Origin: Candidatus Vogelbacteria bacterium
Lineage (GTDB): Bacteria; Patescibacteriota; Minisyncoccia; Phycocordibacterales; XYD1-FULL-46-19
Length of the DNA stretch: 64,000 bases
Direction of reading: 5' to 3'
Assembly (NCBI GenBank): GCA_016188295.1
Contig: JACPIA010000009.1
Location: 1,509 to 65,508 of the forward strand
Below are positions 3,685-55,179 of this stretch, one piece after another. Every line of letters starts with the position of its first letter. The stretch's first letter is position 1. The notes below the pieces were generated by a model. It saw nothing but the letters and a program-made list of their open reading frames with translations, had not been told where the DNA came from and did no database searches. The position numbers and the translations under genes were made by a program.

Positions 3685-4788
3685 TTAAAGTAATCGACTG
3701 ATGTCGTGCCAGGTAACTACAAACATTAGACTAAGTAGTAAAACAAAACCGATTAAATTTAAAATATTGGCAATTCGCGGTTTAATCGGTGAACCCTTAA
3801 TGGACTCAATTAAGACAAAAAGTAGACGTCCTCCATCTAGAGCCGGGAATGGGATTAAATTAAGGACCGCCAAGTTGATGGAAATAAAAGCCACAAATGA
3901 GAGTAAGTAAGCCAAACCAAGAGTCCGGGCATCACCGACTAAACCAGCCAAACCGACCGGTCCAGTCACCGAGTCAAGTGTGGCCAGACCTTGGACCGCT
4001 TGTACCGCCAAATGCCCTAAACCCTGGACTGTTAACTTAGTTAGAGAGATCGTCATCTTAAACGCTTGCCAAGGTGCTTGCCACCACGCAAAAGCAACTG
4101 TACCCACTTGTCCCAGTATCACCCCAAGAGCGGGTTGATTTGGCGCTCCGGCAATCAAGCCCATTTCGGGTTTTACTCGATAATCAACTGTCTCTCCTTT
4201 TGAGGTAACCACTTTTATACTCAGACCATCGCCACTAGTGCTAATAAAATTAATTGCTTGTTTAGCACTAGTGGGCACTAACTCTTCGCCAGCTCGGGTT
4301 AGTAAGAGGACTTGATCGCCGGTTTTAAGACCCACTTTAGCGGCTGGCGTACCTGGCACTATCGTTAAAATAGTTAAGTGGATGTCTTCAACAATGGCAC
4401 TAGCCGGCACACCTTCGACACTCATCGGCACACCGACCCCTAGAGCGATACTCAAAAACAACCAAGCTAAAATAATATTGGCGGTCACTCCTGCTATTAA
4501 TACTAGTGCTTGAGTCCATTTAGATTTAGCGATCAAACTGTCGGGAGTCGAAGTTACCCCCGACACTAGCTCCTCCGGTGTCTCGCCAAAAATACGAACA
4601 AAACCGCCAAATGGGATTAAATTAAGCGAGTAGAGTGTTTCCCCATAACGGATACCAAAAACTTTAGGGGGAAAGCCTAGTCCAAACTCATCCACTCTAA
4701 TACCCGACCACTTAGCTACCACAAAGTGACCCAGCTCGTGGAAAAAGACAAGTACCGCCAAAATAATCAAAAAAATAATGACGGTCAT
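3685..4788 (-). CDS. rseP: Site-2 zinc metalloprotease RseP/RasP with PDZ domain
   Basis: HELGHFVVAK (HExxH) in first TM, central PDZ-like segment, C-terminal LDGG motif (ALDGGRLLF). Confidence 0.85.
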   Translation of the reverse strand: MTVIIFLIILAVLVFFHELGHFVVAKWSGIRVDEFGLGFPPKVFGIRYGETLYSLNLIPFGGFVRIFGETPEELVSGVTSTPDSLIAKSKWTQALVLIAGVTANIILAWLFLSIALGVGVPMSVEGVPASAIVEDIHLTILTIVPGTPAAKVGLKTGDQVLLLTRAGEELVPTSAKQAINFISTSGDGLSIKVVTSKGETVDYRVKPEMGLIAGAPNQPALGVILGQVGTVAFAWWQAPWQAFKMTISLTKLTVQGLGHLAVQAVQGLATLDSVTGPVGLAGLVGDARTLGLAYLLSFVAFISINLAVLNLIPFPALDGGRLLFVLIESIKGSPIKPRIANILNLIGFVLLLSLMFVVTWHDISRLL

Positions 4789-44507: not shown

Positions 44508-47183
44508 TTATGCCACAGCGTGCGTGGTTTTGCCACGACGCTTAGGTTTAAAGCTTTTTTGGAGCTCTAGGTGAGGTACGCCATCTTTAATCGTCACCAA
44601 CACTTCCCCACCCCCTTCTACCTTGCGGGCAATAATAAACTCGGCAATCGGATTAAGTAGTTTGGTCTGAATTAGACGTTTAAGCGGCCGAGCGCCATAC
44701 TCCGGCGTATAGCCCTCGCGAGTCAAGTAAGGTAACACCTCTGGTGCAATTTTAAGCGCGATCCCTTTTTTAACCAAACGTTCACCAACCAGTGACAACT
44801 GGAGCGAAACAATCTCTTGAATTATCTCTGATGATAACGGATTAAAAATAATGATGTCATCTAAACGATTTAAGAACTCGGGACGGAAATAATTTTTAAG
44901 TGAATCACTGATCCGCTCTTTAACTTCGTCAAAGTTGGTCGTCTTTTCATCACCGACTCCAAAGCCCATTTTTTGGAATTTGGTAATAAATTCACTGCCA
45001 ATATTGGAGGTCAAGATAATAATCGTATTTTTAAAGTTAACCACTCGACCCTTAGAGTCGGTTAAACGCCCATTATCTAGCACTTGTAAGAGCAAGTTAA
45101 AAATCTCAGGATGGGCCTTCTCGATCTCGTCGAACAAGAGCACCGAGTATGGCCGATGTCTCACTAACTCCGTAAGTGAACCGCCCTCCTCATAGCCCAC
45201 ATAACCCGGCGGAGAGCCGATTAATTTAGACACCGAATGGCGTTCCATATACTCGGACATATCCACCCGGATGAGTGACTTTTCATCATTAAAAATAAAT
45301 TGAGCTAAAGTTTTAGCCAACTCTGTTTTACCAACTCCGGTAGGGCCGAGAAAAATAAATGAGCCAATTGGTCGATTAGGATCGGCAATCCCGGCGCGCG
45401 AGCGGCGTACAGCATCACTGATTTTTTTAATCGCCTCATCTTGGCCGCGGACCCTCTGATGCAACTCACTTTCTAGTACCAACAATTTTTTAGACTCCTC
45501 CTCTAGCATTTTAGTCACCGGGATACCGGTCCAGCGCGCCACCACTTTAGCGATCTCTTCATCCGTTACCTCCTCTTTTAAAATTTTGCGGGCACTTTGC
45601 AACTTTTTAAGCCTAGCGTCTTTAGCCCGCAACTGCTTTTCTAAATCAGGAATCCGACCATAACGGATCTCGGCCGCTCGCGAAAGATCAGCTTTAGCCT
45701 CCGCTTGAGTCGCCTCTAAACGAGCAATCTCTAAGCCAGCTTTGACTGCTCGGATCTCGGTAATAATCTGTTTTTCATTCTTCCATTTGAGCTCTAGCTC
45801 ACTGGTCTTCTCTTTCAAATCACCAATTTCTTTTTCGATTTTTTTAATTCTAGACTTACTACTTTTATCGTCATTTAAATCAACTTCTTTTTTAAGGGCT
45901 TCCCGCTCCACCTCTAAGCGCATAATTTTACGCTCGGATTCCTCAAGCAGACTCGGTTTATTCTCTAATTGTAGACGGAGCGCCGAGGCGGCTTCATCAA
46001 TCAGATCAATCGCTTTGTCCGGCAAGAAGCGATCGGTAATGTAACGGCTCGAGAGGTTAACCGCCGCAATAATCGCATCATCAGTAATATGTACCCCATG
46101 ATGAAGTTCATATTTTTCTTTTAAGCCGCGCAAAATAGTGACGGCATCATCTACTGTCGGCTCCTCCACAATTACTGGCTGAAAGCGTCGCGTTAACGCC
46201 TGATCACGCTCGATGTATTTTTGATACTCTTTAATAGTAGTGGCACCAATGGCCCGCAAAGTGCCTCGCGCCAAAGCTGGCTTAAGCATATTAGAGGCAT
46301 CAATCGCTCCCTCGGCTGCCCCAGCTCCCACAATAGTGTGGAGTTCATCGATAAATAAAATTACTTTATCCTCCGATTTTTCAATCTCCTTCATAATATT
46401 TTTGAGCCGTTCCTCAAACTCACCACGATACTTGGTGCCAGCCAACAACATCCCCAAATCAAGTGAGACTAATTCTTTATCTCGAAGCGATTCAGGCACA
46501 TCACCCTTAGCAATGCGAATAGCAAGCCCCTCAACTATGGCCGTTTTACCAGTACCAGCCTCACCAATTAACACTGGATTATTCTTAGTCCGGCGCGATA
46601 AAATTTCCATCACTCGACGAATTTCATTCTCGCGACCAATTACCGGATCAAGCTTATCATTTCGCGCCAAAGTAGTTAAACTGCGAGTATATTTTTCTAA
46701 AGCTCTAAATTTAGGTGAGTCATCAATAGTACCTTGACCGGAACGGAGATCCTCCAACACTCGCAAGACATTAGTTTGATCAACTCGAAAACGAGTCAAG
46801 ATCTCCTTAGCGCCACTTGGTGTATCGAGTAAAGCCAACAATAAATGCTCGGTCGAAACAAACTCGTCCGCTAAATTGCCGGCCATTTTAGCGGAGCTAT
46901 CAAAAATTTTGACTAACTCGGGGGTTAAATAAATTTGGTACGACGGCGCCACCACTTGACCACTATCACCACTATCAATGTGCTCCAGTAAATGATCAGT
47001 CAGCATTGTCGTGTCAATCTCTAGTCTATCTAAAATAGAAATAACCATACTCTCTTCTTGTAAGAGCAGAGCGGCCAAAAGATGTAGCGGATTAACCTGA
47101 TTTTGGCCACGTTCTAGCGCCAACTCATGAGCTTTGCGGATGGCCTCACGGGCCTTCGTGGTGAAGTTTTGAAAAGGTAACAT
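44508..47183 (-). CDS. clpB: ClpB-type AAA+ disaggregase (Clp_N repeats, two AAA modules, long M-domain)
   Basis: [15 protein letters not shown] and [15 protein letters not shown] Walker A boxes, coiled-coil middle domain, 891 aa. Confidence 0.9.
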
Positions 47184-47203
47184 ACTCTATTATTTTACAA
47201 CTT

Positions 47204-47995
47204 TTATTTTACAGAGTCAATTAGGATATTGAGATATTTGCCCGGGATAGCAGTACCGGTACCAGAGACCATCCCTACAATCTCACCTTTAAGATTAAGG
47301 AGTGGGCCACCAATAGTTTGAGTGGTGGCCGCGGTCGTTAACAATGAAGTTAAACTAGTGCTTGCCACCCCACTAGTAACGCCAGTAATATTACCGATAG
47401 CAACAATCGGATCCGTCGCCGCGGCCCCTAGGGCTACTACCATTTGACCGATAGTAGTATCTGCCCCCGAAACTGTAGGCCAAGTAGAGATATCACCCTT
47501 AACGGTGATCGGTTTGTCTAAACGGAGCACCACTAGACCGGTTTTAGTATCAACATTAACTAAAGTAGCACTAGTTGAGGAGCCTAATGAGGATGAAACT
47601 TCGTAATGGAAACCCCGATTAGGAACTACTAAATTGGTAGTAATCACTAAATTGTTTTTATTAAGAAACAGAAAGCCCGTGCCTTGTTTATTTTCATCTC
47701 GACTATAAGTAGACTTGGCCTCAATATGAACTACGCCACCCGAAGCTTGGTTGATCGCTTTGATCAGCAAATCCTCACCAGTTACTATTAATGGCACCTC
47801 TTTAACCGTTCCAACCGCCGCCGGGGCTTGGACTACCTTTTCGACTGTGCGCTCGATTACTTGATTGATGGTCTGAGTAACCCCCTGCGGACTTTGGTCC
47901 ATCAGCGACACAGTAACGATCCCAGTCGCAATTGAAGTGATAAAACTGACTAACAAAGCCAGCATGATAATTTGATTTTTATTAAGCTCTTCCAT
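47204..47995 (-). CDS. Membrane-anchored trypsin/HtrA-like protein lacking the catalytic His and Ser
   Basis: GTGFLFLNKNNLVITTNLVV aligns to HtrA GSGFII...TNxHVV with His replaced. QTIGGPLLNLKGEIVGM aligns to GNSGGPLxNxxGEVIGI with Ser replaced by Ile. Confidence 0.45.
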   Translation of the reverse strand: MEELNKNQIIMLALLVSFITSIATGIVTVSLMDQSPQGVTQTINQVIERTVEKVVQAPAAVGTVKEVPLIVTGEDLLIKAINQASGGVVHIEAKSTYSRDENKQGTGFLFLNKNNLVITTNLVVPNRGFHYEVSSSLGSSTSATLVNVDTKTGLVVLRLDKPITVKGDISTWPTVSGADTTIGQMVVALGAAATDPIVAIGNITGVTSGVASTSLTSLLTTAATTQTIGGPLLNLKGEIVGMVSGTGTAIPGKYLNILIDSVK

Positions 47996-48051
47996 GTCAC
48001 CTTACTATACTTTATTTATTCGGATTTTGTCCACTAAAGCCAATTTGGTAT

Positions 48052-49146
48052 TTATAATTTAGGCTGTTGGCGCAGTTTAGTCACGACAAGAGCAGACACC
48101 CGCGCCACTCGATCAATATCACTGGTACTCGTCTTAGTATCTAAAGTAATCCTAACCGTACTCTCGGCCTGCTCTCGATCTCCACCTAAAGCCAGTATAA
48201 CATGGCCCTCGAAGTGGCCGTGATTATTACAAGCACTGCCGGTGGAGATGGCGATCCCTTTTTGATCAAGCTCCACCACTAATTGCTCGCCTGAAACACC
48301 GGCTACCGACACATTAATATTATGCGGTAAGCGTTTAACCAGATCGCCATTTACCATGACTCCCGGAATGGCAATCAATGATTTAATTAATTTATCGCGT
48401 AATAATGTTAATTTTTTAGTCTCGATCTCGCGTTTGCTATTCCATTTGACTAAAGCCTCTACGCCGGCAACAATAGCCGAAACATTCTCGGTCCCCGAGC
48501 GTAAACCAAACTCTTGACCACCGCCAAGCAACAAGGGTTTAAGTGGCGTACCGTGGCGGACATATAAAACTCCCACCCCAGCCGGTCCACCAACCTTATG
48601 AGTGTTTAAAGTCATTAAATCAACGCCCAGATCATTTACTTTTAAATTTAAAAAGCGGCTCGCTTGACAAGCATCAGTGTGAAAATACGGCGTGCTAATT
48701 TTATATTTATTTCTATGCGCTTTAATAATTTTACTAATTTCTTTAAGCGGTTGAATGGTGCCCAACTCATTACTGGCGTAAATTACCGACACTAATTTAG
48801 TCTCGCGAGTTAATAACTTTTTAAATTGTTCTAAATCCAGCAAACCTTTTTTAGTGACCGGCACTATTACAGCCTGTCGCGCTAAACCGGGCTCACGGAT
48901 AGAAGCATGTTCAATCGCACTGATCAAAATACCGCCAGTAAAGCTATTGATTACTGTATTATTGCTCTCGGTGCCACCGCTGGTAAAAATAACCTCATCG
49001 GATTTAACACTAAGCAAGCGAGCCACTTGAGTACGCGCTTTATTTAAAGCCATGCGCGCCATCCCCCCTTCCTGATGAATACTCGAGGGGTTAGACGCAC
49101 CAGCGGCGATATCCAGATATAGACGCTTCATCTTGGGACTTATCAT
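48052..49146 (-). CDS. Cysteine desulfurase (class V aminotransferase, IscS/NifS family)
   Basis: FTSGGTESNN, PLP-lysine region NTHKVGGPAGVGVLYV, active-site Cys in STGSACNNHG. Confidence 0.85.
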   Translation of the reverse strand: MISPKMKRLYLDIAAGASNPSSIHQEGGMARMALNKARTQVARLLSVKSDEVIFTSGGTESNNTVINSFTGGILISAIEHASIREPGLARQAVIVPVTKKGLLDLEQFKKLLTRETKLVSVIYASNELGTIQPLKEISKIIKAHRNKYKISTPYFHTDACQASRFLNLKVNDLGVDLMTLNTHKVGGPAGVGVLYVRHGTPLKPLLLGGGQEFGLRSGTENVSAIVAGVEALVKWNSKREIETKKLTLLRDKLIKSLIAIPGVMVNGDLVKRLPHNINVSVAGVSGEQLVVELDQKGIAISTGSACNNHGHFEGHVILALGGDREQAESTVRITLDTKTSTSDIDRVARVSALVVTKLRQQPKL

Positions 49147-49152
49147 AGTATA

Positions 49153-49620
49153 ATGAGAGATATGTTGCCACTCGAAGGCCCCTACATTTTAATTTACGCT
49201 TTAATTTTAATCGTGGTGATTTTAATTAGTTGGATTGTTTATTTAGAGCATCGACTCAATCGCTGGTGGCGTGGTAAAAAAGCCAGTGATTTAGAGAGTG
49301 TGATGATTGCCATTGGCGGAGCGATTGATGATTTTGAGACCCGGCATGGCGTGATTAATGAGCAATTAATCGACATTAACCGTCGTCTAAAAAAGAGTGT
49401 CCAAAAAGTTCAGACCTTACGCTACAACCCTTTTCGTGATCAAGGTGGTAATCAAAGTTTTACTACCGCTCTCATCAATGAAGAAGGTGACGGCGTGATA
49501 ATCTCCAGTATTTACTCTCGCGATAAAGTCAGTGTCTACAGCAAACCAATCCGAGGACTCTCCTCGGAATATGAATTAACTGATGAAGAGCGTGAGGTTT
49601 TAGAACAGACGAAGAAGTAA
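49153..49620 (+). CDS. DUF4446-like membrane-anchored protein
   Basis: N-terminal TM. RYNPFRDQGGNQSFTTALINEEGDGVIISSIYSRDKVSVYSKP resembles DUF4446 proteins (recalled from memory). Confidence 0.4.
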   Translation: MRDMLPLEGPYILIYALILIVVILISWIVYLEHRLNRWWRGKKASDLESVMIAIGGAIDDFETRHGVINEQLIDINRRLKKSVQKVQTLRYNPFRDQGGNQSFTTALINEEGDGVIISSIYSRDKVSVYSKPIRGLSSEYELTDEEREVLEQTKK

Positions 49621-49667
49621 ATTAATCTTTACCTTTAGGGTGGAAAATGGTACTGTGGGAACGCTGT

Positions 49668-51191
49668 ATGACTAAATCCGCCCCTAAAACTGAAGTGGCA
49701 ACCAAGCGCCCACCGGTGGTAGTAATTATGGGTCACGTTGATCATGGTAAATCGACCTTACTTGATTACATCCGCAAAACCAATGTGGTCGCTAGTGAAT
49801 CTGGCGGAATCACTCAGCATATTAGTGCTTATGAGGTTAAACACCAAACAGCGGAAGGTAAGGAGGAATTGATTACTTTTTTAGATACACCCGGCCACGA
49901 AGCATTTGAGTTGATGCGTACCCGCGGTGCCTTTATCTCGGATATTGCAGTCTTGATTGTCTCGGCCGAAGAGGGAGTTAAAGCCCAAACCATGGAGGCA
50001 ATTAAATCAATTAAAGCAGCCAATATCCCTTATTTGGTGGCGATCAATAAAATTGATCGCCCCGGTGCTAATCCGGAGCACGTTAGACAAGAACTCGCCG
50101 AAAAAGAGGTTTATGTTGAGAGTTATGGTGGTCAAATACCGGCGGCCGAAATTTCAGCTAAAGTAGGCACTGGCGTTAATGAATTACTCGATTTAATTTT
50201 ACTCTCAGCCGATTTAACGGATTTAACCGGAAATAAAAACAGTAACGCGACCGGTTTTGTGTTAGAGACTCATATGGATCCAAAGAATGGCGGCACAGCG
50301 ACTTTGGTGATTAAAAACGGTACGTTAAATTTAGGCGACTTTGTCGTGGCTGGCAGTACTGTCACTAAACTCAAGAAAATAGAAAACTATAACGGAGTGA
50401 TGGGTAAAAACTTTACTTTCTCCGCTCCAGTTAAGGCCTTTGGCTTTAGTGAATTACCACCGGTTGGTGCAACCTTTGCTAGTTTTGGCGATAAAAAAGA
50501 AGCGGAAGTGGCGATGGTAGCCAATAAGCAAACACCAACCGTGCGCCAATTAGCCGACAATACTAACAGCGAAACAGCGACTATTATTCCGGTGATTTTA
50601 AAAGCGGATGTAACCGGCTCATTGGAGGCACTGGAGAAGGCAGTACGTGCTCAAGCCAGTGGCAACGTTGAGATTAAAATTTTAGCCACTGGTATTGGAG
50701 CGATTAATGATAATGATATTAAATCAGCCAGCGCTTCAGACCAATCACTGGTTTTAGGTTTTAGAGTCAAAATTGAAAAGGGGGCTAAAGATTTAGCTAA
50801 GCGCTTTAATTTAATTGTTGAGACCTTTGATATCATTTACAAATTAACCGAACGCCTAGCTGAATTGGTGGTCGCCCGCACTCCGCGAGTATTGGTGGAG
50901 GAGACGGTGGGGAAAGCCAAAATTTTAAAGCTCTTTGGTAAAACTAAGGATCGCCAAATTGCCGGTGGCCAAGTGTTGAGTGGTAAAATCTTGCGCGGTC
51001 GGGAAGTTAAAATTCTACGTCGTGATTTTGAGATTGGCCGAGGCCGGATTGTCGAATTGGAACAACAAAAAACCAAAACTGCCGAGGTGGCTGAGGGTAA
51101 TCAATTTGGCTCGATGATCGAGTCGCGTATCGCCTTGGCTATGGGCGACACTATCGAAGTATTTGATAATGTGGAAAAAGTGGCGGAATAA
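49668..51191 (+). CDS. infB: Translation initiation factor IF-2 (short form starting at the G domain)
   Basis: [31 protein letters not shown]. Start taken at MTKS; the ORF is open from 49647. Confidence 0.85.
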
Positions 51192-51197
51192 GGCATA

Positions 51198-51488
51198 ATG
51201 AATACGGCCAGCAACAAACGCAAACAAGCAATCATGGCTGCCAGTGCTGAATTTTTAACACGGGTCAGTGGTCGGCAATCGTTGATTACCGTGACCGATG
51301 CTGACGTCTCGCCTGATGGTCGTAATGCTACCATTTACATCTCGGTATTACCGGGAAGCGCGAACAAGCAAGCACTGGAGTTTTGTAACCGGCAATTGAG
51401 TGACTTGCGCGAGCACGTTGGTGAGCGGGTACGGTTGCGGACACTCCCCCACTTTGAAGTTGCACTTGATCCAAACATCCAATTATAA
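51198..51488 (+). CDS. rbfA: Ribosome-binding factor A
   Basis: 96 aa: ...LITVTDADVSPDGRNATIYISVL...LRTLPHFEVALD. infB-rbfA synteny. Confidence 0.65.
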   Translation: MNTASNKRKQAIMAASAEFLTRVSGRQSLITVTDADVSPDGRNATIYISVLPGSANKQALEFCNRQLSDLREHVGERVRLRTLPHFEVALDPNIQL

Positions 51489-51491
51489 TAA

Positions 51492-51566
51492 GGCACGGTG
51501 GTGAAATGGTAACACTGCGGTCTGCAAAACCGCCATGCGCGGGTTCGATTCCCGCCCGTGCCTCCA
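51492..51566 (+). tRNA. tRNA-Cys (anticodon GCA), CCA encoded
   Basis: Manual fold: acceptor GGCACGG/CCGTGCC, anticodon stem GCGGT/ACCGC, loop CTGCAAA, T-arm GCGGG-TTCGATT-CCCGC. Confidence 0.8.
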
Positions 51567-51571
51567 GAATT

Positions 51572-52060
51572 ATGAATCGCAAGCGAAGGTGGACCTTACC
51601 ACAACTAACTGATGTAGTAAAAAGTGTTTACAGTTTAAGACAAGTTTTAAGTAAGTTAAACCTAAAACCAACCGGCGGTAATTACAATCAAGTCAAAAAG
51701 TATATTTTAGAGTCAAAATTGGATACTAAACACTTTAAGGGTAAAGCTTGGAACAAAGGTTTGTGTGGAATTGGAAAACCAATATACTCACTGAAAGATA
51801 TCTTAACAGTCGATAGTAGCTATCAGAGCTATAAACTCAAAAATCGGTTGTTTAAAGCTGGACTTAAACAACCTAAATGTGAAATATGTGGTTGGTCTAA
51901 AAAATCAGTCGATGGACGTACCCCAGTTGAACTTGATCACATTAATGGTAATAATAGAGATAATCGGATAATTAATCTGAGAATATTGTGTCCTAACTGC
52001 CATAGCCTACAATCAACTCATCGTGGTAGAAATAGGACTATAAAAAAGCCGGGGTGGTGA
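51572..52060 (+). CDS. Free-standing HNH endonuclease (homing-endonuclease-like)
   Basis: Starts 6 nt after tRNA-Cys and ends 13 nt inside tRNA-Leu. CEICGW...VELDHINGNNRDNRIINLRILCPNCHSLQ (HNH, Cys4-type). Low-GC coding. Confidence 0.7.
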   Translation: MNRKRRWTLPQLTDVVKSVYSLRQVLSKLNLKPTGGNYNQVKKYILESKLDTKHFKGKAWNKGLCGIGKPIYSLKDILTVDSSYQSYKLKNRLFKAGLKQPKCEICGWSKKSVDGRTPVELDHINGNNRDNRIINLRILCPNCHSLQSTHRGRNRTIKKPGW

Positions 52061-52134
52061 AATTGGTAGACACGCAACACTTAAAATGTTGTGAGCGTAA
52101 GCTCTTGCGGGTTCGATTCCCGCCCTCGGCACCA
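52048..52134 (+). tRNA. tRNA-Leu (anticodon TAA), CCA encoded
   Basis: Manual fold: acceptor GCCGGGG/CCTCGGC, anticodon stem CAACA/TGTTG, loop CTTAAAA, long variable arm, T-arm GCGGG-TTCGATT-CCCGC. Confidence 0.8.
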
Positions 52135-52425
52135 CGTAGGAAAAGTCAATGCCTCGCGGCGCGGAACGCGCCGCTCGGCGACCAAATCGTACGGATTTTT
52201 CGGGGCAAAAAGAAATTCCCGATTCCGTAAAATATGGTTCGCGCCGATGTTTTTCATAAATGTTGTCATTTCGGAAAGATTTTCTGATTCCAGTAAGTTA
52301 GTGGCTTGATTTAAGGATTTTACGAACTCACGAGCCGGTTCGAGCCAAGACAAACCTTTTTGTTCAAAGTCGACAATTTTCTCTTGCAAAGATACTTTCT
52401 GCAAGATGAGAACGTTCTTTTCCAA
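52081..52425 (-). pseudogene. Possible gene remnant (114-aa ORF whose 3' end runs antisense through tRNA-Leu)
   Basis: ORF with coding-like N-terminus (LSWLEPAREFVKSLNQATNLLESEN) and no stop before it overlaps the tRNA by 54 nt. Could be a disrupted gene or an artefact. Confidence 0.15.
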
Positions 52426-52530
52426 GAAGCGGCACTTGCCGCTTCTTGACTTTTATGGTCTGATATGCTATCCTTGGATGAAATCCAAGCATGGTGCTTA
52501 GATAAGTTGAACCTTGAAAAGGAGGCAAAT

Positions 52531-52800
52531 ATGAACCGCGGAAAGTGGTACTTCGTTTACACCTACCGAGACACATTTGGAGGAGGCCTTGCCGGTACGA
52601 CCGAGCATGAAGAAATTCCTCTGAAGGCGACTACCGAAGAGGGAGCGATCGTGGAGGCGAAAGTAATCTGGGAGAAGAAAGTCGCCGAAACTCGCACCTA
52701 CTGGGAGAAGCAAAAGAAGGAATGGGCGACTCCGCCGGCAAGTTCGTTCAAGGACGGACCCCACACACCTCGTGTCATCTACAAAATCTCGCTACAATGA
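52531..52800 (+). CDS. Hypothetical protein in high-GC insert
   Basis: SD AAGGAGG 7 nt upstream. MNRGKWYFVYTYRDTFGGGL..., 89 aa. Stop overlaps the next start (ATGA). Confidence 0.45.
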   Translation: MNRGKWYFVYTYRDTFGGGLAGTTEHEEIPLKATTEEGAIVEAKVIWEKKVAETRTYWEKQKKEWATPPASSFKDGPHTPRVIYKISLQ

Positions 52801-52811
52801 GGAGGATGACG

Positions 52812-53286
52812 ATGACACAAGAACAACGCTGGACGGCTCTGTGGCAACGTCTTGGTGCGAGAGGAGACGCAAGCGTGGTCTACAACGACCTCGCTATGCG
52901 ATACTCCGAACCGCACCGAGCGTACCACACTCACGGTAGAAGTGGCGAGAAATGCTTCGTTGCCCGACAACCTCGGACAATCAGTAGCAAATTTCATCAC
53001 AGCAACGAAGCACACTTCGGCTCCCACCAATCCTGATGTTCAGCTTCTCGTTGATGTCGATCTCTCGATTCTCGGTCAATCCGAGGACAAGTTCGATGAA
53101 TACGAGCGGCAGGTTCGTAAGGAATACGAGTGGGTCGCCGAGAATGCGTTCGTCGCCGGACGGTCGGCAATCCTCAAGTCGTTTCTCGACCGACCGACTA
53201 TCTACTCGACGCAGTTCTTCCGCAACAAGTACGAAGCGCAAACTCGGCGAAACATCGCCAGATCACTTGCCCGCCTTCGGACGTAA
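52812..53286 (+). pseudogene. Frameshifted, internally shortened remnant of an HD-superfamily phosphohydrolase (the family with RWxxLWxRLG...EPHRxYHT at the N-terminus and DLSILG...EY.WV C-terminal block)
   Basis: Frame 0 gives MTQEQRWTALWQRLGARGDASVVYNDLAMRYSEPHRAYHT, then diverges to a stop at 53036. Frame +1 from about 52930 gives ...ATKHTSAPTNPDVQLLVDVDLSILGQSEDKFDEYERQVRKEYEWVAENAFVAGRSAILKSFLDRPTIYSTQFFRNKYEAQTRRNIARSLARL. The family match is from memory. Confidence 0.4.
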
Positions 53287-53287
53287 C

Positions 53288-53323
53288 ATGGGCATTCTCG
53301 CAAGAGGGTGCCCATTCTTTTTT
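53288..53323 (+). terminator. Intrinsic terminator (ATGGGCATTCTC-gcaa-GAGGGTGCCCAT + TCTTTTTT)
   Basis: Hairpin plus T-run 2 nt after the stop of the HD remnant. Confidence 0.55.
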
Positions 53324-53570
53324 GAAAGAACAAAGAATTTGCCGCCGAGACTGAAATTCGTTAGAATTTCAGTAATCCGAACTCCGCCAAAGAAAAACTT
53401 GAAAGGGAAGAAATTTTTTAATCATACAAATTTAGAAACGGGAGATGCTAGATATGGCGTTTTTGTTTAGCTTGACGTAAGAGTGATATTATGCTTTGCT
53501 CTACTCGGCGCAATAATCGGGTCATAATGACTCGATCGCACATTTCAAAACTCAAAACTGGAGGTAAATA

Positions 53571-53834
53571 ATGAGGAGTTTAATGAGGAGTTTCTTTCTT
53601 GTTCTCGAGGACGCAGTGACTGTTCTGTGGTTCGGGATTCAGATTATCCTGTTGTTTGTTTTCATGTTCATGATAGTCTCGAACATCCCCTGGACGTCGG
53701 AAGATTTGTTGATGGTATTCTCGCTGGTTATGATCTGGACCGCGATCAGCTATTACCTGATCAGTATCTTCATGACGGAGCTGACGATGCCAGGCTCGAA
53801 GTGGATTCGTTTCAACAAATTGAAATTCTCATAA
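53571..53834 (+). CDS. Candidate small 2-TM membrane protein
   Basis: SD GGAGGT 8 nt upstream. MRSLMRSFFLVLEDAVTVLWFGIQIILLFVFMFMIVSN... Start region contains a 12-nt direct duplication (atgaggagttta/atgaggagtttc). Confidence 0.35.
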   Translation: MRSLMRSFFLVLEDAVTVLWFGIQIILLFVFMFMIVSNIPWTSEDLLMVFSLVMIWTAISYYLISIFMTELTMPGSKWIRFNKLKFS

Positions 53835-53881
53835 AAATGTTTTATCCTTACTAAGTAATAATGTAATGGATTTGAAACAAA

Positions 53882-53954
53882 GCCCTGTTAGCTCAGTTGG
53901 TAGAGCAGTCGCCTCTTAAGCGAACGGTCGTTGGTTCGAATCCAACACGGGGCA
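53882..53954 (+). tRNA. tRNA-Lys (anticodon CTT)
   Basis: Manual fold: acceptor GCCCTGT/ACGGGGC, D-arm GCTC-AGTTGGTA-GAGC, anticodon loop CTCTTAA, T-arm GTTGG-TTCGAAT-CCAAC. No CCA. Confidence 0.8.
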
Positions 53955-53971
53955 CTCGGAAAAATAAATAT

Positions 53972-54053
53972 GCTGGGGTGGCGAAATTGGCAGACGCACT
54001 TGCCTTAGGAGCAAGCGGGGTAACCCATGGAGGTTCAAGTCCTCTCCCCAGCA
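53972..54053 (+). tRNA. tRNA-Leu (anticodon TAG)
   Basis: Manual fold: acceptor GCTGGGG/CCCCAGC, anticodon stem CTTGC/GCAAG, loop CTTAGGA, long variable arm, T-loop TTCAAGT. Confidence 0.8.
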
Positions 54054-54067
54054 CTAGAATAGAACTT

Positions 54068-55030
54068 ATGTCTAATCCCAAAAAAATTTTAGTAACCGGT
54101 TGTGCGGGCTTTATTGGCAGTAATTTTATAAAACAGTTTAAGAAAAAATGGCCAAAAACTAAGATTATCGGTCTTGATAATTTCTCGACCGGCAGACAAG
54201 ATGCGCTGGACCCGTCAATTATTTTTTACGAGGGATCAATTTTAGACGAAACGCTTTTGGAAAAAATTTTTTCTAAACACAAACCGGAATATGTTTTTCA
54301 TTTCGCCGCACTACCCCGAGTTTCTTACTCGATTGAGCATCCACGACACACCAGCGAAGTTAATATTATTGGAACTATTGCGCTGTTAGAAGCGGCAAAA
54401 AATCATAACGTAAAAAGATTGATCTATTCATCATCTTCATCTGTCTACGGTGGTGCAAAAAAACTGCCGACCAAAGAATCAGAAAATTTCCCCGACCCCA
54501 AATCTCCTTATGCTGTTCAAAAATACATCGGCGAGCCGTTTTGTAAAATTTTTAGCGAGCTATTTGGACTAGATACTGTCTGTCTCCGTTATTTTAATGT
54601 TTTTGGTCCCGGCCAATATGGCAATTCACCATACTCCACAGTCATATCGGCCTGGCTGGAGTCATCATATTTTCCGAACCAGAAAAAAGCATTTATAGAG
54701 GGGGCTGGCAACCAATCAAGGGATTTTTGTTATATCGATAATGTCGTCCGAGCCAATATTTTAGCTATGCAATCAAAAAATAATTTTAAAGGGGAAGTAT
54801 TTAATATCGCACATGGAAACCAGATAACGATTAACGAGGTAAAAAAACTAATAGAGAAATATACCAATAAGAAACTAATGTTAGAAAAACGTCCATCGAG
54901 ATTGGGGGATGTAACGCGTACTTGCGCTGACATTTCCAAAGCTAAAAAGTTTTTAGGCTACCAGCCAGTTGTAGATTTTGATGAGGGATTAAGACGGACA
55001 GTCGTCTGGTTTGAATCCCGCAAAAGATAA
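54068..55030 (+). CDS. NAD-dependent nucleotide-sugar epimerase/dehydratase (SDR extended family)
   Basis: ILVTGCAGFIGSNF (GxxGxxG), catalytic YAVQK (YxxxK). Start at MSNPKK; the upstream part of the reported ORF covers two tRNAs. Confidence 0.8.
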   Translation: MSNPKKILVTGCAGFIGSNFIKQFKKKWPKTKIIGLDNFSTGRQDALDPSIIFYEGSILDETLLEKIFSKHKPEYVFHFAALPRVSYSIEHPRHTSEVNIIGTIALLEAAKNHNVKRLIYSSSSSVYGGAKKLPTKESENFPDPKSPYAVQKYIGEPFCKIFSELFGLDTVCLRYFNVFGPGQYGNSPYSTVISAWLESSYFPNQKKAFIEGAGNQSRDFCYIDNVVRANILAMQSKNNFKGEVFNIAHGNQITINEVKKLIEKYTNKKLMLEKRPSRLGDVTRTCADISKAKKFLGYQPVVDFDEGLRRTVVWFESRKR

Positions 55031-55179
55031 TAATTTCTTAATTTACATTGACAAAGTAAGGTCTATTATGCTATAATAAAAAGCAGAAGAGACGGCCTAA
55101 AACCTATCGTTTTGGAGCCCCAAAATAAGGTCATTGACATTCAATTGACTACAAATCCCCTATCGGGGGGAAGGAGGTT

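What the first reader, a model, noticed from the sequence alone, without database searches (positions are those of the whole stretch)
51492..54053. tRNA-punctuated mosaic island: HNH endonuclease between two tRNAs, then a high-GC insert with an HD-hydrolase pseudogene and its own intact terminator
Four tRNAs (Cys, Leu-TAA, Lys, Leu-TAG) bracket two foreign-looking segments. (a) A 162-aa HNH endonuclease gene is fitted between tRNA-Cys and tRNA-Leu, with a 6-nt gap and a 13-nt overlap. It is low-GC, can only be co-transcribed with the tRNAs, and is arranged like phage free-standing homing endonucleases in tRNA clusters. (b) A 1.4-kb segment of markedly higher GC (52135 to about 53560) produces overlapping ORFs in several frames. 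It contains an SD-led 89-aa gene, then a gene whose N-terminus (MTQEQRWTALWQRLG...EPHRAYHT) and C-terminal block (DLSILG...EYEWV...IYST) belong to one HD-phosphohydrolase family but lie in different frames with a shortened middle. A perfect terminator follows 2 nt after the stop. An SD-led 2-TM mini-protein lies beyond. The intact regulatory elements suggest recent acquisition from a higher-GC donor followed by decay.
Basis: partly seen in the sequence, partly recalled or inferred. Interest (0 to 1): 0.7.

Follow-up and report, generated by a model that had tools for sequence, protein, structure and literature searches.

The report
HNH gene and decayed tRNA island
In a Saccharibacteria (CPR) genome, a compact four-tRNA operon has taken up an HNH endonuclease gene together with a foreign tRNA-Leu, plus the decayed remnant of a serine-recombinase mobile element carrying a dead HD-hydrolase cassette; the HNH gene belongs to a very large family that sits directly next to tRNA-Leu genes in CPR bacteria and phages.

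Summary
The four tRNAs, the 162-aa HNH gene (13-nt overlap with tRNA-Leu), the high-GC segment, the 89-aa gene, the broken HD gene, the terminator and the small membrane ORF are all present. The closest relatives (IF2 80-89% identical) have the same four tRNAs in about 520-550 nt with none of these inserts.

New points:
1. The window's tRNA-Leu(UAA) is itself foreign. It is 68-69% identical to the relatives' copy, whereas tRNA-Cys is 96% and the tRNA-Lys/Leu(UAG) block 98.8%.
2. The HNH belongs to a CPR-wide family. In 78 of 80 metagenomic loci it lies immediately upstream of tRNA-Leu(UAA). Phage homologues sit in tRNA clusters, often beside a tRNA-Leu.
3. Positions 52111-52422 (minus strand) are the 3' remnant of a large serine recombinase gene, abutting the tRNA 3' end.
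4. Positions 52421-53397 are a self-contained orf89-HD cassette, 79-92% nt-identical to copies beside other tRNAs in other CPR lineages.
5. The HD gene carries one 146-nt deletion that removes the HD motif. The deletion is reproduced in an independent assembly, so it is not a sequencing error.
6. The membrane-ORF module is a further cargo unit.

Verdict: a tRNA-locus hotspot combining a free-standing homing-type HNH/tRNA-Leu unit with a decayed integrative element. It is a new variant of known kinds, of moderate interest.

The parts
51492..51566 (+). tRNA-Cys(GCA), native. The left breakpoint of the replaced segment lies at its 3' end: the window reads ...GCCTCCA, the relatives ...GCCTCAC.
   Evidence: It is 96% identical to L001/L002. 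Synteny with L001 ends at 51564.
51572..52060 (+). HNH endonuclease gene, 162 aa. It has an N-terminal three-helix module and a C-terminal HNH with two CxxC pairs. It starts 5 nt after tRNA-Cys, and its last 13 nt lie inside tRNA-Leu(UAA).
52048..52134 (+). tRNA-Leu(UAA) with encoded CCA. It is xenologous, of the type linked to HNH genes in other CPR lineages.
   Evidence: It is 68-69% identical to L001/L002/L003, which are 93-96% identical to each other. It is 84-87% identical to the HNH-linked tRNA-Leu of L073, L069, L079 and L096.
52111..52422 (-). 3' remnant (about 100 codons) of a large serine recombinase gene, plus the element end that abuts the tRNA 3' CCA. The N-terminal catalytic part is missing.
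   Evidence: tblastn against the C-terminal ORF of the split recombinase in L180 gives 79% identity over 104 aa. Nucleotide identity is 87% to L180 and 83% to L181. In L180 this piece follows a Resolvase+Recombinase+Zn_ribbon gene. The same end sequence follows four different tRNAs.
52423..52448 (.). Perfect 12-bp hairpin at the junction between the recombinase remnant and the orf89-HD cassette. It is the first feature of the cassette in all copies.
52446..52474 (+). Promoter-like site of the cassette: TTGACT, 17 nt, TATCCT. L182 has TATACT at the -10 position.
   Evidence: This is a consensus match only.
52531..52800 (+). orf89, an SD-led conserved small gene of unknown function. It is the partner of the HD gene in L182 and L183.
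   Evidence: Against L182 it shows 16 synonymous and 5 non-synonymous codon differences.
52812..53286 (+). HD-family phosphohydrolase pseudogene. A single 146-nt deletion, with its junction at 52929/52930, removes residues about 40-88 including the HD motif and shifts the frame.
   Evidence: The junction is reproduced in the Logan contig SRR12113418_945410.
53288..53323 (+). Intrinsic-terminator-like hairpin plus T-run at the end of the HD gene. It is conserved in L182, L183 and L185.
52421..53397 (+). Core orf89-HD cassette as a unit: hairpin, promoter-like site, orf89, HD, terminator, and about 80 nt of tail. It has high GC.
   Evidence: Nucleotide identity is 88-92% to L182, 88% to L185 and 79-81% to L183, with the same boundaries. 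GC and tetranucleotide outlier.
53486..53834 (+). Second cargo module, carrying the SD-led 87-aa two-segment hydrophobic ORF (53571-53834).
   Evidence: It is 77% nt-identical to L186, where it follows tRNA-Ile(GAT) and the same recombinase-end sequence.
53882..54054 (+). tRNA-Lys(CUU) and tRNA-Leu(UAG), native. Synteny with the relatives resumes here.
   Evidence: 98.8% identical to L001..

Best explanation
The ancestral Saccharibacteria arrangement is infB-rbfA-tRNA-Cys-tRNA-Leu(UAA)-tRNA-Lys-tRNA-Leu(UAG). In this genome everything between the 3' end of tRNA-Cys and the 5' end of tRNA-Lys (51567-53881) has been replaced by foreign DNA. That DNA consists of two kinds of mobile element.

(1) An HNH endonuclease gene fused head-to-tail to its own tRNA-Leu(UAA). 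This pair is a fixed unit found throughout the CPR. I infer that it is a free-standing homing-type endonuclease whose target lies in or at the tRNA-Leu gene, and that it entered by recombination that also converted the neighbouring tRNA-Leu. The gene has no room for its own promoter. It must be transcribed with the tRNAs, and RNase P cleavage at the 5' end of tRNA-Leu would remove its last four codons and its stop codon. Expression should therefore be low and coupled to tRNA processing, as was proposed for T4 SegB.

(2) The decayed remnant of a large-serine-recombinase integrative element that inserts exactly at the 3' CCA end of tRNA genes. Only the last 100 or so codons of the recombinase survive. 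Its cargo is an autonomous orf89-HD cassette, now inactivated by a 146-nt deletion, and a small membrane-protein module.

Shown: the insertions, the xenologous tRNA, the family-wide HNH/tRNA-Leu linkage, the recombinase remnant and its junction, the cassette's spread among lineages, and the deletion.

Inferred: homing activity and its target, the route of entry, and the effect of tRNA processing on expression.
For: Empty versus filled site. L001, L002 and L003 have Cys-(4 to 167 nt)-Leu(UAA)-(about 22 nt)-Lys-(6 to 53 nt)-Leu(UAG), with no HNH gene or HNH remnant. Synteny with the window breaks at 51564 and resumes at 53882.

Foreign tRNA-Leu.

Family linkage. There are more than 5144 homologues at 60-70% identity across CPR phyla. 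In 78 of 80 metagenomic loci tRNA-Leu(UAA) lies on the same strand directly after the HNH. Measured in 82 HNH-linked loci (those 78 plus the window, L006, L012 and L014), the gap between the stop codon and the tRNA start ranges from -131 to +22 nt, and half of the ORFs overlap the tRNA. In 45 of the 80 metagenomic loci tRNA-Cys lies upstream.

Phage homologues. Phage-contig homologues lie in tRNA clusters. In 34 of 80 a tRNA-Leu(UAA) lies nearby: within 400 nt upstream in 31 (within about 105 nt where I read the coordinates) and within 150 nt downstream in 3. In cultured phages, the HNH of E. coli phage mistaenkt ends 1 nt before tRNA-Leu(UAG)-tRNA-Lys, and the HNH of cyanophage S-CRM01 follows tRNA-Leu(CAA). 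PADLOC's homing-endonuclease model matches at E 4.9e-19.

Precedent. T4 SegB, encoded in a tRNA cluster, recognises the TpsiC motif of tRNA genes, drives inheritance of the surrounding tRNA genes, and has an ORF end that is cut during tRNA maturation (PMC2330249).

Recombinase remnant.

Cassette mobility. There are copies beside tRNA-Leu(GAG), tRNA-Lys(UUU) and tRNA-Ile(GAT) in other CPR genomes, at 79-92% nt identity. In L185 the cassette is 51% GC in a 39% GC genome.

Deletion and independent assemblies.
Against: - No cleavage data exist, and the target site is not identified.
- The HNH genes are intact in all 80 loci and are more conserved than IF2 (63% against 38% for the IF2 C-terminal half). 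Their GC is ameliorated to each host. This fits long vertical residence under selection better than a short-lived selfish element.
- The nearest HNH to the window's is only about 68% identical, so no donor has been sampled.
- The right end of the island has no recognisable att site or repeat. The 25-bp terminal inverted repeats that bound the cassette in L182 are absent here.
- The junctions at 52157-52489 and 53391-53881 rest on one MAG contig only.
Confidence: 0.7

Rival explanations
1. The HNH is an ancient, vertically inherited and domesticated CPR host gene, for example a nuclease with a cellular or defensive role tied to the tRNA operon. Under this reading the relatives L001-L003 simply lost it, and it is not a mobile homing element.
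For: It is intact in 80 of 80 loci. There are 52 invariant positions among 16 sequences from different phyla. It is more conserved than IF2. Its GC and GC3 track host GC with a slope of about 0.94. It has a fixed position downstream of infB in very different phyla.
Against: - Within Saccharibacteria the gene is present in the window and in L012 but absent from L001, L002 and L003, with no remnant.
- The window's adjacent tRNA-Leu is xenologous, which loss cannot explain.
- HNH identity shows little or no correlation with divergence of IF2 or of the tRNAs (rho -0.01 to 0.21).
- Homologues in phages are typical free-standing endonuclease genes in tRNA clusters.
Confidence: 0.2
2. The island is an assembly chimera. 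Conserved tRNA genes and repeated element ends let the assembler stitch fragments of other CPR genomes into a Saccharibacteria contig.
For: - The modules are repeated in the metagenome.
- Independent Logan contigs break at 52157 and at 52489/53391, close to module boundaries.
- The cassette's best matches are Parcubacteria-type genomes.
- NCBI labels the contig 'Candidatus Vogelbacteria', although the core genes match Saccharibacteria.
Against: - An independent assembly from another run joins the core genes, infB, rbfA, tRNA-Cys, HNH, tRNA-Leu and the first 23 nt of the recombinase-element end in one 7048-nt contig at 100% identity. HNH, the foreign tRNA-Leu and the element end are therefore physically linked to this genome.
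- A chimera would need several joins and a return to the exact syntenic position at tRNA-Lys.
- The same kind of mosaic beside tRNAs is seen in unrelated assemblies.
Confidence: 0.07
3. The whole block (HNH, tRNA-Leu, recombinase, cargo) is the remnant of a single prophage that carried its own tRNA and homing endonuclease and integrated at tRNA-Cys.
For: - The left junction lies exactly at the 3' end of tRNA-Cys.
- Phages carry HNH plus tRNA-Leu pairs.
- Recombinase elements of this family insert at tRNA 3' ends.
- In L015 the recombinase is followed by phage-like small genes.
Against: - The native tRNA-Leu(UAA) that should then remain downstream is absent.
- HNH-tRNA-Leu occurs without any recombinase in most loci.
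- The window's HNH belongs to the cellular CPR subfamily (57-68% identical), not the phage one (30-52%).
- There are no phage structural genes, and no match in viral contigs to the element end.
Confidence: 0.05
4. The HD frameshift is a sequencing or assembly error, and the gene is really intact.
Against: The lesion is a 146-nt deletion, not a homopolymer slip. It removes 49 conserved residues. It is reproduced at 100% identity in a contig assembled from a different run, SRR12113418.
Confidence: 0.02

Closest known systems
Phage T4 SegB, a free-standing homing endonuclease in the T4 tRNA gene cluster (PMC2330249)
   Same: The gene lies between tRNA genes and is co-transcribed with them. The ORF end is cut by maturation of the downstream tRNA. 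The gene is absent from close relatives at the same locus, and its spread carries the neighbouring tRNA genes with it. SegB recognises a tRNA-gene motif.
   Different: SegB is GIY-YIG, not HNH, and is a phage gene. Here the gene is in a cellular chromosome, is tied to one tRNA species (Leu), and is conserved across a whole superphylum. Cleavage and homing were shown for SegB and are only inferred here.
Phage tRNA-cluster HNH endonucleases: phrog_10822; for example the HNH of E. coli phage mistaenkt (QHR68001.1) and Synechococcus phage S-CRM01 g201; T5 F-TflI/II/IV by annotation (Akulenko 2004, pmid 15456135)
   Same: They are homologous over the full length: phrog_10822 at E 4.5e-43 and 35-52% identity. 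They have the same position directly next to a tRNA-Leu gene.
   Different: The CPR subfamily is chromosomal, is always upstream of tRNA-Leu(UAA), and is usually downstream of infB and tRNA-Cys. The link to T5 F-TflIV rests only on a database name for P0074 and was not tested here.
Large-serine-recombinase integrative elements, and tRNA-gene integration hotspots (genomic islands)
   Same: The recombinase gene lies at the element end, next to the 3' end of a tRNA gene. The cargo is foreign in composition, and the element decays after insertion.
   Different: Integration at tRNA 3' ends is classically a trait of tyrosine integrases. Here a serine-recombinase family uses the CCA end of several different tRNAs (Leu-UAA, Arg-UCU, Ile-UAU), and its own 3' coding end overlaps the tRNA in antisense. 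In the window only a fragment remains.
HD-superfamily phosphohydrolases of the family that NCBI names 'NMDAR2C subunit' and JGI names 'predicted metal-dependent HD superfamily phosphohydrolase' (phrog_19425)
   Same: The N-terminal 39 residues and C-terminal 118 residues align at 85-90% identity to 206-aa members.
   Different: The catalytic H...HD region is deleted, so the window copy is a pseudogene. The family's link to Pfam HD is weak (E 0.011, below the cut-off).

Membership tests
HNH (His-Me finger) endonuclease | A beta-beta-alpha-metal motif with a catalytic His and Asn, plus two CxxC zinc-binding pairs | tested here: met
   Pfam PF01844 matches at E 1.3e-4 with 22.5 bits, against a cut-off of 21.4. 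C103, C106, C140, C143, D122-H123, N135 and H144 are invariant. The model shows strands at 120-123 and 136-139 followed by a helix. Fold matches to McrA, ScoMcrA and Cap5 are weak.
Free-standing homing endonuclease gene | The ORF lies in an intergenic position, not inside an intron or intein | tested here: met
   It lies between tRNA-Cys and tRNA-Leu. No intron family was found by Rfam.
Free-standing homing endonuclease gene | Presence/absence polymorphism at the same locus in close relatives | tested here: met
   L001, L002 and L003 lack it, with no remnant. The window and L012 have it.
Free-standing homing endonuclease gene | Co-conversion of flanking markers | tested here: inconclusive
   The adjacent tRNA-Leu(UAA) is replaced by a foreign type, while tRNA-Cys and tRNA-Lys stay native. 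This is consistent with co-conversion but not proof of it.
Free-standing homing endonuclease gene | Site-specific cleavage of the allele that lacks the gene | not testable with these tools
   This needs an enzyme assay on an L001-type allele.
Large serine recombinase integrative element | An intact recombinase with Resolvase, Recombinase and zinc-ribbon domains | tested here: not met
   Only the C-terminal 100 or so codons remain. The full domain set is seen in the relative L180.
Large serine recombinase integrative element | An element end joined to a defined attachment site | tested here: met
   The same end, CGTWGGAAAWGTCAA...CTCGGCGACCAAATCGTACGG, directly follows the CACCA 3' end of four different tRNA genes.
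Large serine recombinase integrative element | A second element end (the other att site) | tested here: not met
   There is no repeat or matching end near 53881. The L182/L180 terminal inverted repeat is absent from the window.
HD-domain phosphohydrolase | Conserved H...HD...D metal-binding residues | tested here: not met
   These residues are deleted in the window. They are present in the 206-aa homologues as HIGH...WYHDAIYD.
HD-domain phosphohydrolase | A match to the family model or fold | tested here: inconclusive
   phrog_19425 'phosphohydrolase' matches at E 2.4e-18. Pfam HD matches only at E 0.011, below its cut-off. There is no PDB sequence match. The structure model has pLDDT 52 and is unusable.
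Intrinsic terminator | A GC-rich hairpin followed by a T-run directly after a stop codon | tested here: met
   The hairpin is at 53288-53315 and is followed by TCTTTTTT. It is conserved in L182, L183 and L185. Termination itself was not tested.

The most novel reading that the evidence does not exclude
The CPR HNH/tRNA-Leu(UAA) pair may be a long-term resident, selected system rather than a transient parasite. In this reading it is an endonuclease whose synthesis is gated by tRNA processing (RNase P removes its stop codon) and which cuts tRNA-Leu-gene-like sequences in incoming DNA, such as rival alleles taken up by these naturally competent cells or phage tRNA clusters. It would thereby act as an allele-exclusion or defence device anchored to an essential tRNA gene. 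A second new class would accompany it: serine-recombinase elements that use the universal CCA end of many different tRNAs as their attachment site, with exchangeable cargo cassettes.
Probability: 0.15. Interest if true: 0.75.

Novelty: new variant of a known kind. Interest (0 to 1): 0.5.

Why it matters
Free-standing homing endonucleases in tRNA clusters are known mainly from a few phages such as T4 and T5. This analysis shows a homologous HNH family fixed directly beside tRNA-Leu genes in thousands of cellular CPR genomes and in many phages. The window provides a clean filled-site versus empty-site comparison in which the neighbouring tRNA was swapped as well.

This gives a concrete and testable hypothesis for the endonuclease's target, which is the tRNA-Leu gene. 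It also bears on how tRNA genes themselves are exchanged between very divergent CPR lineages.

The island further shows that CPR genomes, though tiny, share recently moving cassettes (79-92% nt identity across classes). These are delivered by serine recombinases to tRNA 3' ends. That is useful both for annotating CPR mobilomes and for judging MAG contamination or chimerism at tRNA loci.

The individual components (HNH gene, integrative island, pseudogene) are ordinary. The family-wide linkage is the part worth following up.

Tried and rejected
- Structured RNA hypothesis. I asked whether the high-GC block with ORFs in several frames is a large RNA. Rfam finds only the tRNAs, and the block shows coding-type substitution patterns against L182. 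Rejected.
- Direct repeats of the tRNA-Leu 3' end, or other att-like repeats, flanking the island: none found.
- The 25-bp terminal inverted repeat that bounds the cassette in L182 and L180 is absent from the window.
- Pfam, NCBIfam and PADLOC give no function for orf89, the 87-aa ORF or the recombinase fragment.
- PDB sequence searches with profiles of the HNH family and the HD family found nothing useful.
- The structure model of the HD family has pLDDT 52, too poor for a fold search.
- The fold search with the HNH model gave only weak generic HNH matches.
- An exact search for the recombinase-element end in viral contigs gave no match.
- A look-up of the window's HNH by exact sequence found no gene on record, although the protein is in the collection as P0001.
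- The GC-rich spacers of L001, L002 and L182 match no Rfam family.
- The test of HNH identity against IF2 identity had only 9 usable loci, so it is weak. The larger GC-amelioration test pointed towards long residence instead.

Full report
**What is at the coordinates**

ARAGORN and Rfam agree on four same-strand tRNA genes:
- tRNA-Cys(GCA) at 51492-51566
- tRNA-Leu(UAA) at 52048-52134
- tRNA-Lys(CUU) at 53882-53955
- tRNA-Leu(UAG) at 53972-54054

They follow infB (49647-51191) and rbfA (51198-51488). The window belongs to a Saccharibacteria genome. IF2 is 89% and 80% identical to two Saccharibacteria MAGs (L001, L002), and long stretches are syntenic at 72-81% nt identity. NCBI labels the 68,856-nt source contig 'Candidatus Vogelbacteria'.

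**The locus in relatives**

In L001, L002 and L003 the same four tRNAs lie together, separated by 4-167, about 22 and 6-53 nt. There is no protein gene among them. Nucleotide synteny between the window and L001 stops at 51564, resumes for 53882-54054 (98.8% identity), stops again, and resumes at 55047.

The window therefore carries 2.3 kb (51567-53881) where the relatives have about 270 nt. It also carries a further 1-kb insertion, an epimerase gene, after tRNA-Leu(UAG).

**The HNH gene**

The ORF 51572-52060 encodes 162 aa. It starts 5 nt after the encoded CCA of tRNA-Cys and ends 13 nt inside tRNA-Leu(UAA).
- Pfam HNH is just above its cut-off.
- PHROG phrog_10822 'HNH endonuclease' matches over the full length at E 4.5e-43.
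- PADLOC's homing-endonuclease model matches at E 4.9e-19.
- An AlphaFold model (pLDDT 80) shows an N-terminal three-helix module and a C-terminal HNH core. Fold matches are weak and generic.

**A family fixed beside tRNA-Leu**

The protein has more than 5144 homologues, which are 60-70% identical across CPR phyla such as Yanofsky-, Gottesman-, Peregrini- and Paceibacteria.

- In every context I looked up, the gene lies downstream of infB, between tRNA-Cys and tRNA-Leu(UAA). In L014 and L015 it has the same 13-nt overlap.
- In 80 metagenomic loci found with a family alignment, 78 have tRNA-Leu(UAA) on the same strand immediately after the HNH. The other two are a contig end and one exception.
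- In 82 HNH-linked loci (those 78 plus the window, L006, L012 and L014), the true stop-to-tRNA distance ranges from -131 to +22 nt. Half of the ORFs run into the tRNA.
- tRNA-Cys lies within 400 nt upstream in 45 of the 80 metagenomic loci. The invariant unit is therefore HNH plus tRNA-Leu(UAA).
- Phage-contig homologues (30-52% identity) lie in tRNA clusters. The commonest pattern is Ile(UAU)-Met-Leu(UAA), about 45 nt, then HNH. In 34 of 80 a tRNA-Leu(UAA) lies nearby: within 400 nt upstream in 31 (within about 105 nt in the loci I read), within 150 nt downstream in 3.
- In cultured phages, the homologue of E. coli phage mistaenkt ends 1 nt before tRNA-Leu(UAG)-tRNA-Lys(CUU). That of cyanophage S-CRM01 follows tRNA-Leu(CAA).

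**The tRNA-Leu(UAA) is foreign**

The window's tRNA-Cys is 96% identical to that of L001 and L002. Its tRNA-Leu(UAA) is only 68-69% identical to those of L001, L002 and L003, which are 93-96% identical to each other even though the IF2 of L003 is only 52% identical to the window's. The differences include compensatory changes in the stems and an encoded CCA. The window's tRNA-Leu is instead 84-87% identical to HNH-linked tRNA-Leu genes of other CPR contigs.

No HNH remnant exists in the relatives. The simplest reading is that HNH and tRNA-Leu(UAA) arrived together, with the left breakpoint at the very end of tRNA-Cys.

**Selfish or domesticated?**

Two observations argue against a short-lived parasite.
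- The HNH is more conserved than IF2: 63% against 38% for the IF2 C-terminal half in 9 loci. The window's HNH is 60-67% identical to those of L012, L014 and L006, against 40-48% for IF2.
- Its GC and GC3 follow the GC of the flanks across 72 loci (r 0.80 and 0.76, GC3 slope 0.94). It sits on average 5 points below the flanks.

Against that, the patchy distribution within Saccharibacteria, the swapped tRNA, and the weak or absent correlation with host divergence show that transfer does happen.

I favour a homing-type endonuclease that targets the tRNA-Leu gene region. The characterised model is T4 SegB. It is encoded between tRNA genes, recognises the TpsiC motif of tRNA genes, drives inheritance of the surrounding tRNA genes, and has an ORF that is cut at its end by maturation of the next tRNA (PMC2330249). 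The same paper notes that the T5 endonucleases F-TflI and F-TflII are also encoded in a tRNA cluster.

In the window, RNase P cleavage before G52048 would remove the last four codons and the stop codon. With 5 nt between tRNA-Cys and the ATG there is no room for a separate promoter. These two points are inference. A paper on group I introns in Patescibacteria tRNA genes does not describe this free-standing gene (PMC13011429).

**The 1.75-kb insert is a mosaic of three modules**

(i) *Recombinase remnant, 52111-52422, minus strand.* This encodes the last 100 or so residues of a large serine recombinase.
- It is 79% identical at the amino-acid level to the C-terminal ORF of the split recombinase in L180. 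That ORF follows a gene with Resolvase, Recombinase and zinc-ribbon domains.
- It is 83-87% nt-identical to L180 and L181.
- Longer recombinase ORFs occupy the same place after HNH-linked tRNA-Leu(UAA) in L015-L016, L050 and L069, with cut fragments in L017, L018 and L045.
- The same end sequence, CGTWGGAAAWGTCAA...CTCGGCGACCAAATCGTACGG, directly follows the CACCA end of tRNA-Leu(UAA) (window, L045), tRNA-Arg(UCU) (L181) and tRNA-Ile(UAU) (L180). The element family therefore inserts at the 3' end of different tRNAs.
- This segment has average GC.

(ii) *orf89-HD cassette, 52421-53397.* It contains a perfect 12-bp hairpin, a promoter-like site, SD-led orf89, the SD-led HD gene and a terminator.
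- It is 88-92% nt-identical to L182, where it lies after rplS and tRNA-Leu(GAG).
- It is 88% identical to L185 (Nealsonbacteria), where it lies directly after tRNA-Lys(UUU) and orf89 is deleted.
- It is 79-81% identical to L183 (Lloydbacteria), where it lies after tRNA-Ile(GAU). The boundaries are the same in all copies.
- It is the strongest compositional outlier in the window: 51.5% GC and tetranucleotide z +7.9. It is equally foreign in L185, at 51% GC in a 39% GC genome.
- In L182 it is bounded by perfect 25-bp terminal inverted repeats. These also bound a different cargo in L180, but they are absent from the window.

(iii) *Membrane-ORF module, 53486-53834.* It carries the SD-led 87-aa hydrophobic ORF. 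Its single homologue cluster (75% identity) lies in L186, directly after tRNA-Ile(GAU) and a copy of the same recombinase-end sequence.

**The HD pseudogene**

A global alignment with L182 shows one lesion only, a 146-nt deletion with its junction at 52929/52930. It removes residues about 40-88 of a 206-aa protein, including HIGH...WYHDAIYD, and shifts the frame. The remaining parts differ from L182 mostly at third codon positions: 31 synonymous against 16 non-synonymous codons in the C-terminal part, and 16 against 5 in orf89. The gene was therefore under selection until recently.

The family is called HD phosphohydrolase or 'NMDAR2C subunit' by its sources. It matches phrog_19425, but Pfam HD only weakly. 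The fold could not be checked.

**Is it an artefact?**

Two independent Logan assemblies address this.
- One, from run SRR12113422, is 100% identical to window 45110-52157. It links the core genes, tRNA-Cys, HNH, the foreign tRNA-Leu and the start of the recombinase element.
- The other, from run SRR12113418, is 100% identical to 52489-53391, including the deletion junction.

The frameshift is therefore not a sequencing error, and the left half of the island is physically linked to this genome. The joins at 52157-52489 and 53391-53881 rest on the MAG contig alone.

**Verdict**

The finding is real and its core reading is right: the DNA is foreign, it sits between tRNAs, and it is decaying. The anatomy differs from what was proposed. 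It consists of a conserved HNH/tRNA-Leu(UAA) unit of homing-endonuclease type, plus the remnant of a serine-recombinase element that targets tRNA 3' ends and carries two cargo modules, one of them a freshly inactivated HD gene.

Each component is of a known kind. The family-wide, cross-phylum coupling of this HNH to tRNA-Leu genes in cellular genomes is, as far as my literature searches show, not described. It is the part that merits follow-up.

Noticed in passing
window 54055-55046: This is a third insertion at the same tRNA cluster. A low-GC (38.2%, z -2.4) NAD-dependent epimerase/dehydratase gene (54068-55030, Pfam PF01370 at E 4e-59) follows tRNA-Leu(UAG), where L001 and L002 have only a short non-coding spacer (about 35-165 nt). 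Synteny resumes at 55047. A distantly related epimerase (33% identity) lies between tRNA-Cys and the HNH gene in Yanofskybacteria loci L006-L010.
   Followed up: partly
L001 4017-4180; L182 2111-2262; L001 3571-3737 and L002 11898-12058: GC-rich non-coding elements of about 150-165 nt sit directly after tRNA genes. L001 (after tRNA-Leu(UAG)) and L182 (after tRNA-Leu(GAG)) share the motif GYGAACGAGYAGGGAR about 10 nt after the tRNA end. In L182 the element is bracketed by a 19-nt direct repeat of the tRNA 3' end (2092-2110 and 2262-2280), as an insertion would be. There is no Rfam match, and the window has no copy.
   Followed up: partly
L182 2276-2300 / 3707-3731; L180 2685-2705 / 3790-3810: Perfect terminal inverted repeats of 21-25 bp (GCAGTATTCTTGAATTAGTCCGAAC) bound cassettes with different cargo. 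The cargo is orf89-HD in L182 and an unrelated 172-aa gene in L180. In L180 the cassette lies next to a serine recombinase gene; L182 retains only a 26-nt recombinase trace. This suggests a modular, exchangeable-cassette system.
   Followed up: partly
L180 3813-3912 and 5327-5426: The large serine recombinase gene of L180 is flanked by inverted copies, about 100 nt long, of the sequence that forms its own 3' coding end. Its last 66 nt or so overlap tRNA-Ile(UAU) in antisense, so the recombinase C-terminus is partly encoded opposite the tRNA.
   Followed up: no
window (whole) / NCBI proteins MBI2482409.1-MBI2482412.1: NCBI labels the source contig 'Candidatus Vogelbacteria'. However, IF2 (89%) and more than 15 kb of nucleotide synteny match Saccharibacteria MAGs, so the MAG's taxonomic label looks wrong. 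NCBI annotates the HD C-terminal piece as a 108-aa hypothetical protein, not as a pseudogene.
   Followed up: partly
L002 12238-12290 and 12376-12415: The same sequence of about 38 nt (CACGTAAAAACACTACGTGTTCACGTGGCGCAGCCAC) follows both tRNA-Lys and tRNA-Leu(UAG) in L002. Its start, CACCACGTA, resembles the start of the recombinase-element end seen in the window. It may be an integration scar or an attachment site.
   Followed up: no
L183 5348-5378: There is an orphan 3' half of a tRNA-Leu, 90% identical to the 3' part of the window's tRNA-Leu(UAA). It lies between tRNA-Leu(CAG) and tRNA-Arg(CCG), near the HD cassette of L183. It looks like a displaced tRNA end left by an integration.
   Followed up: no
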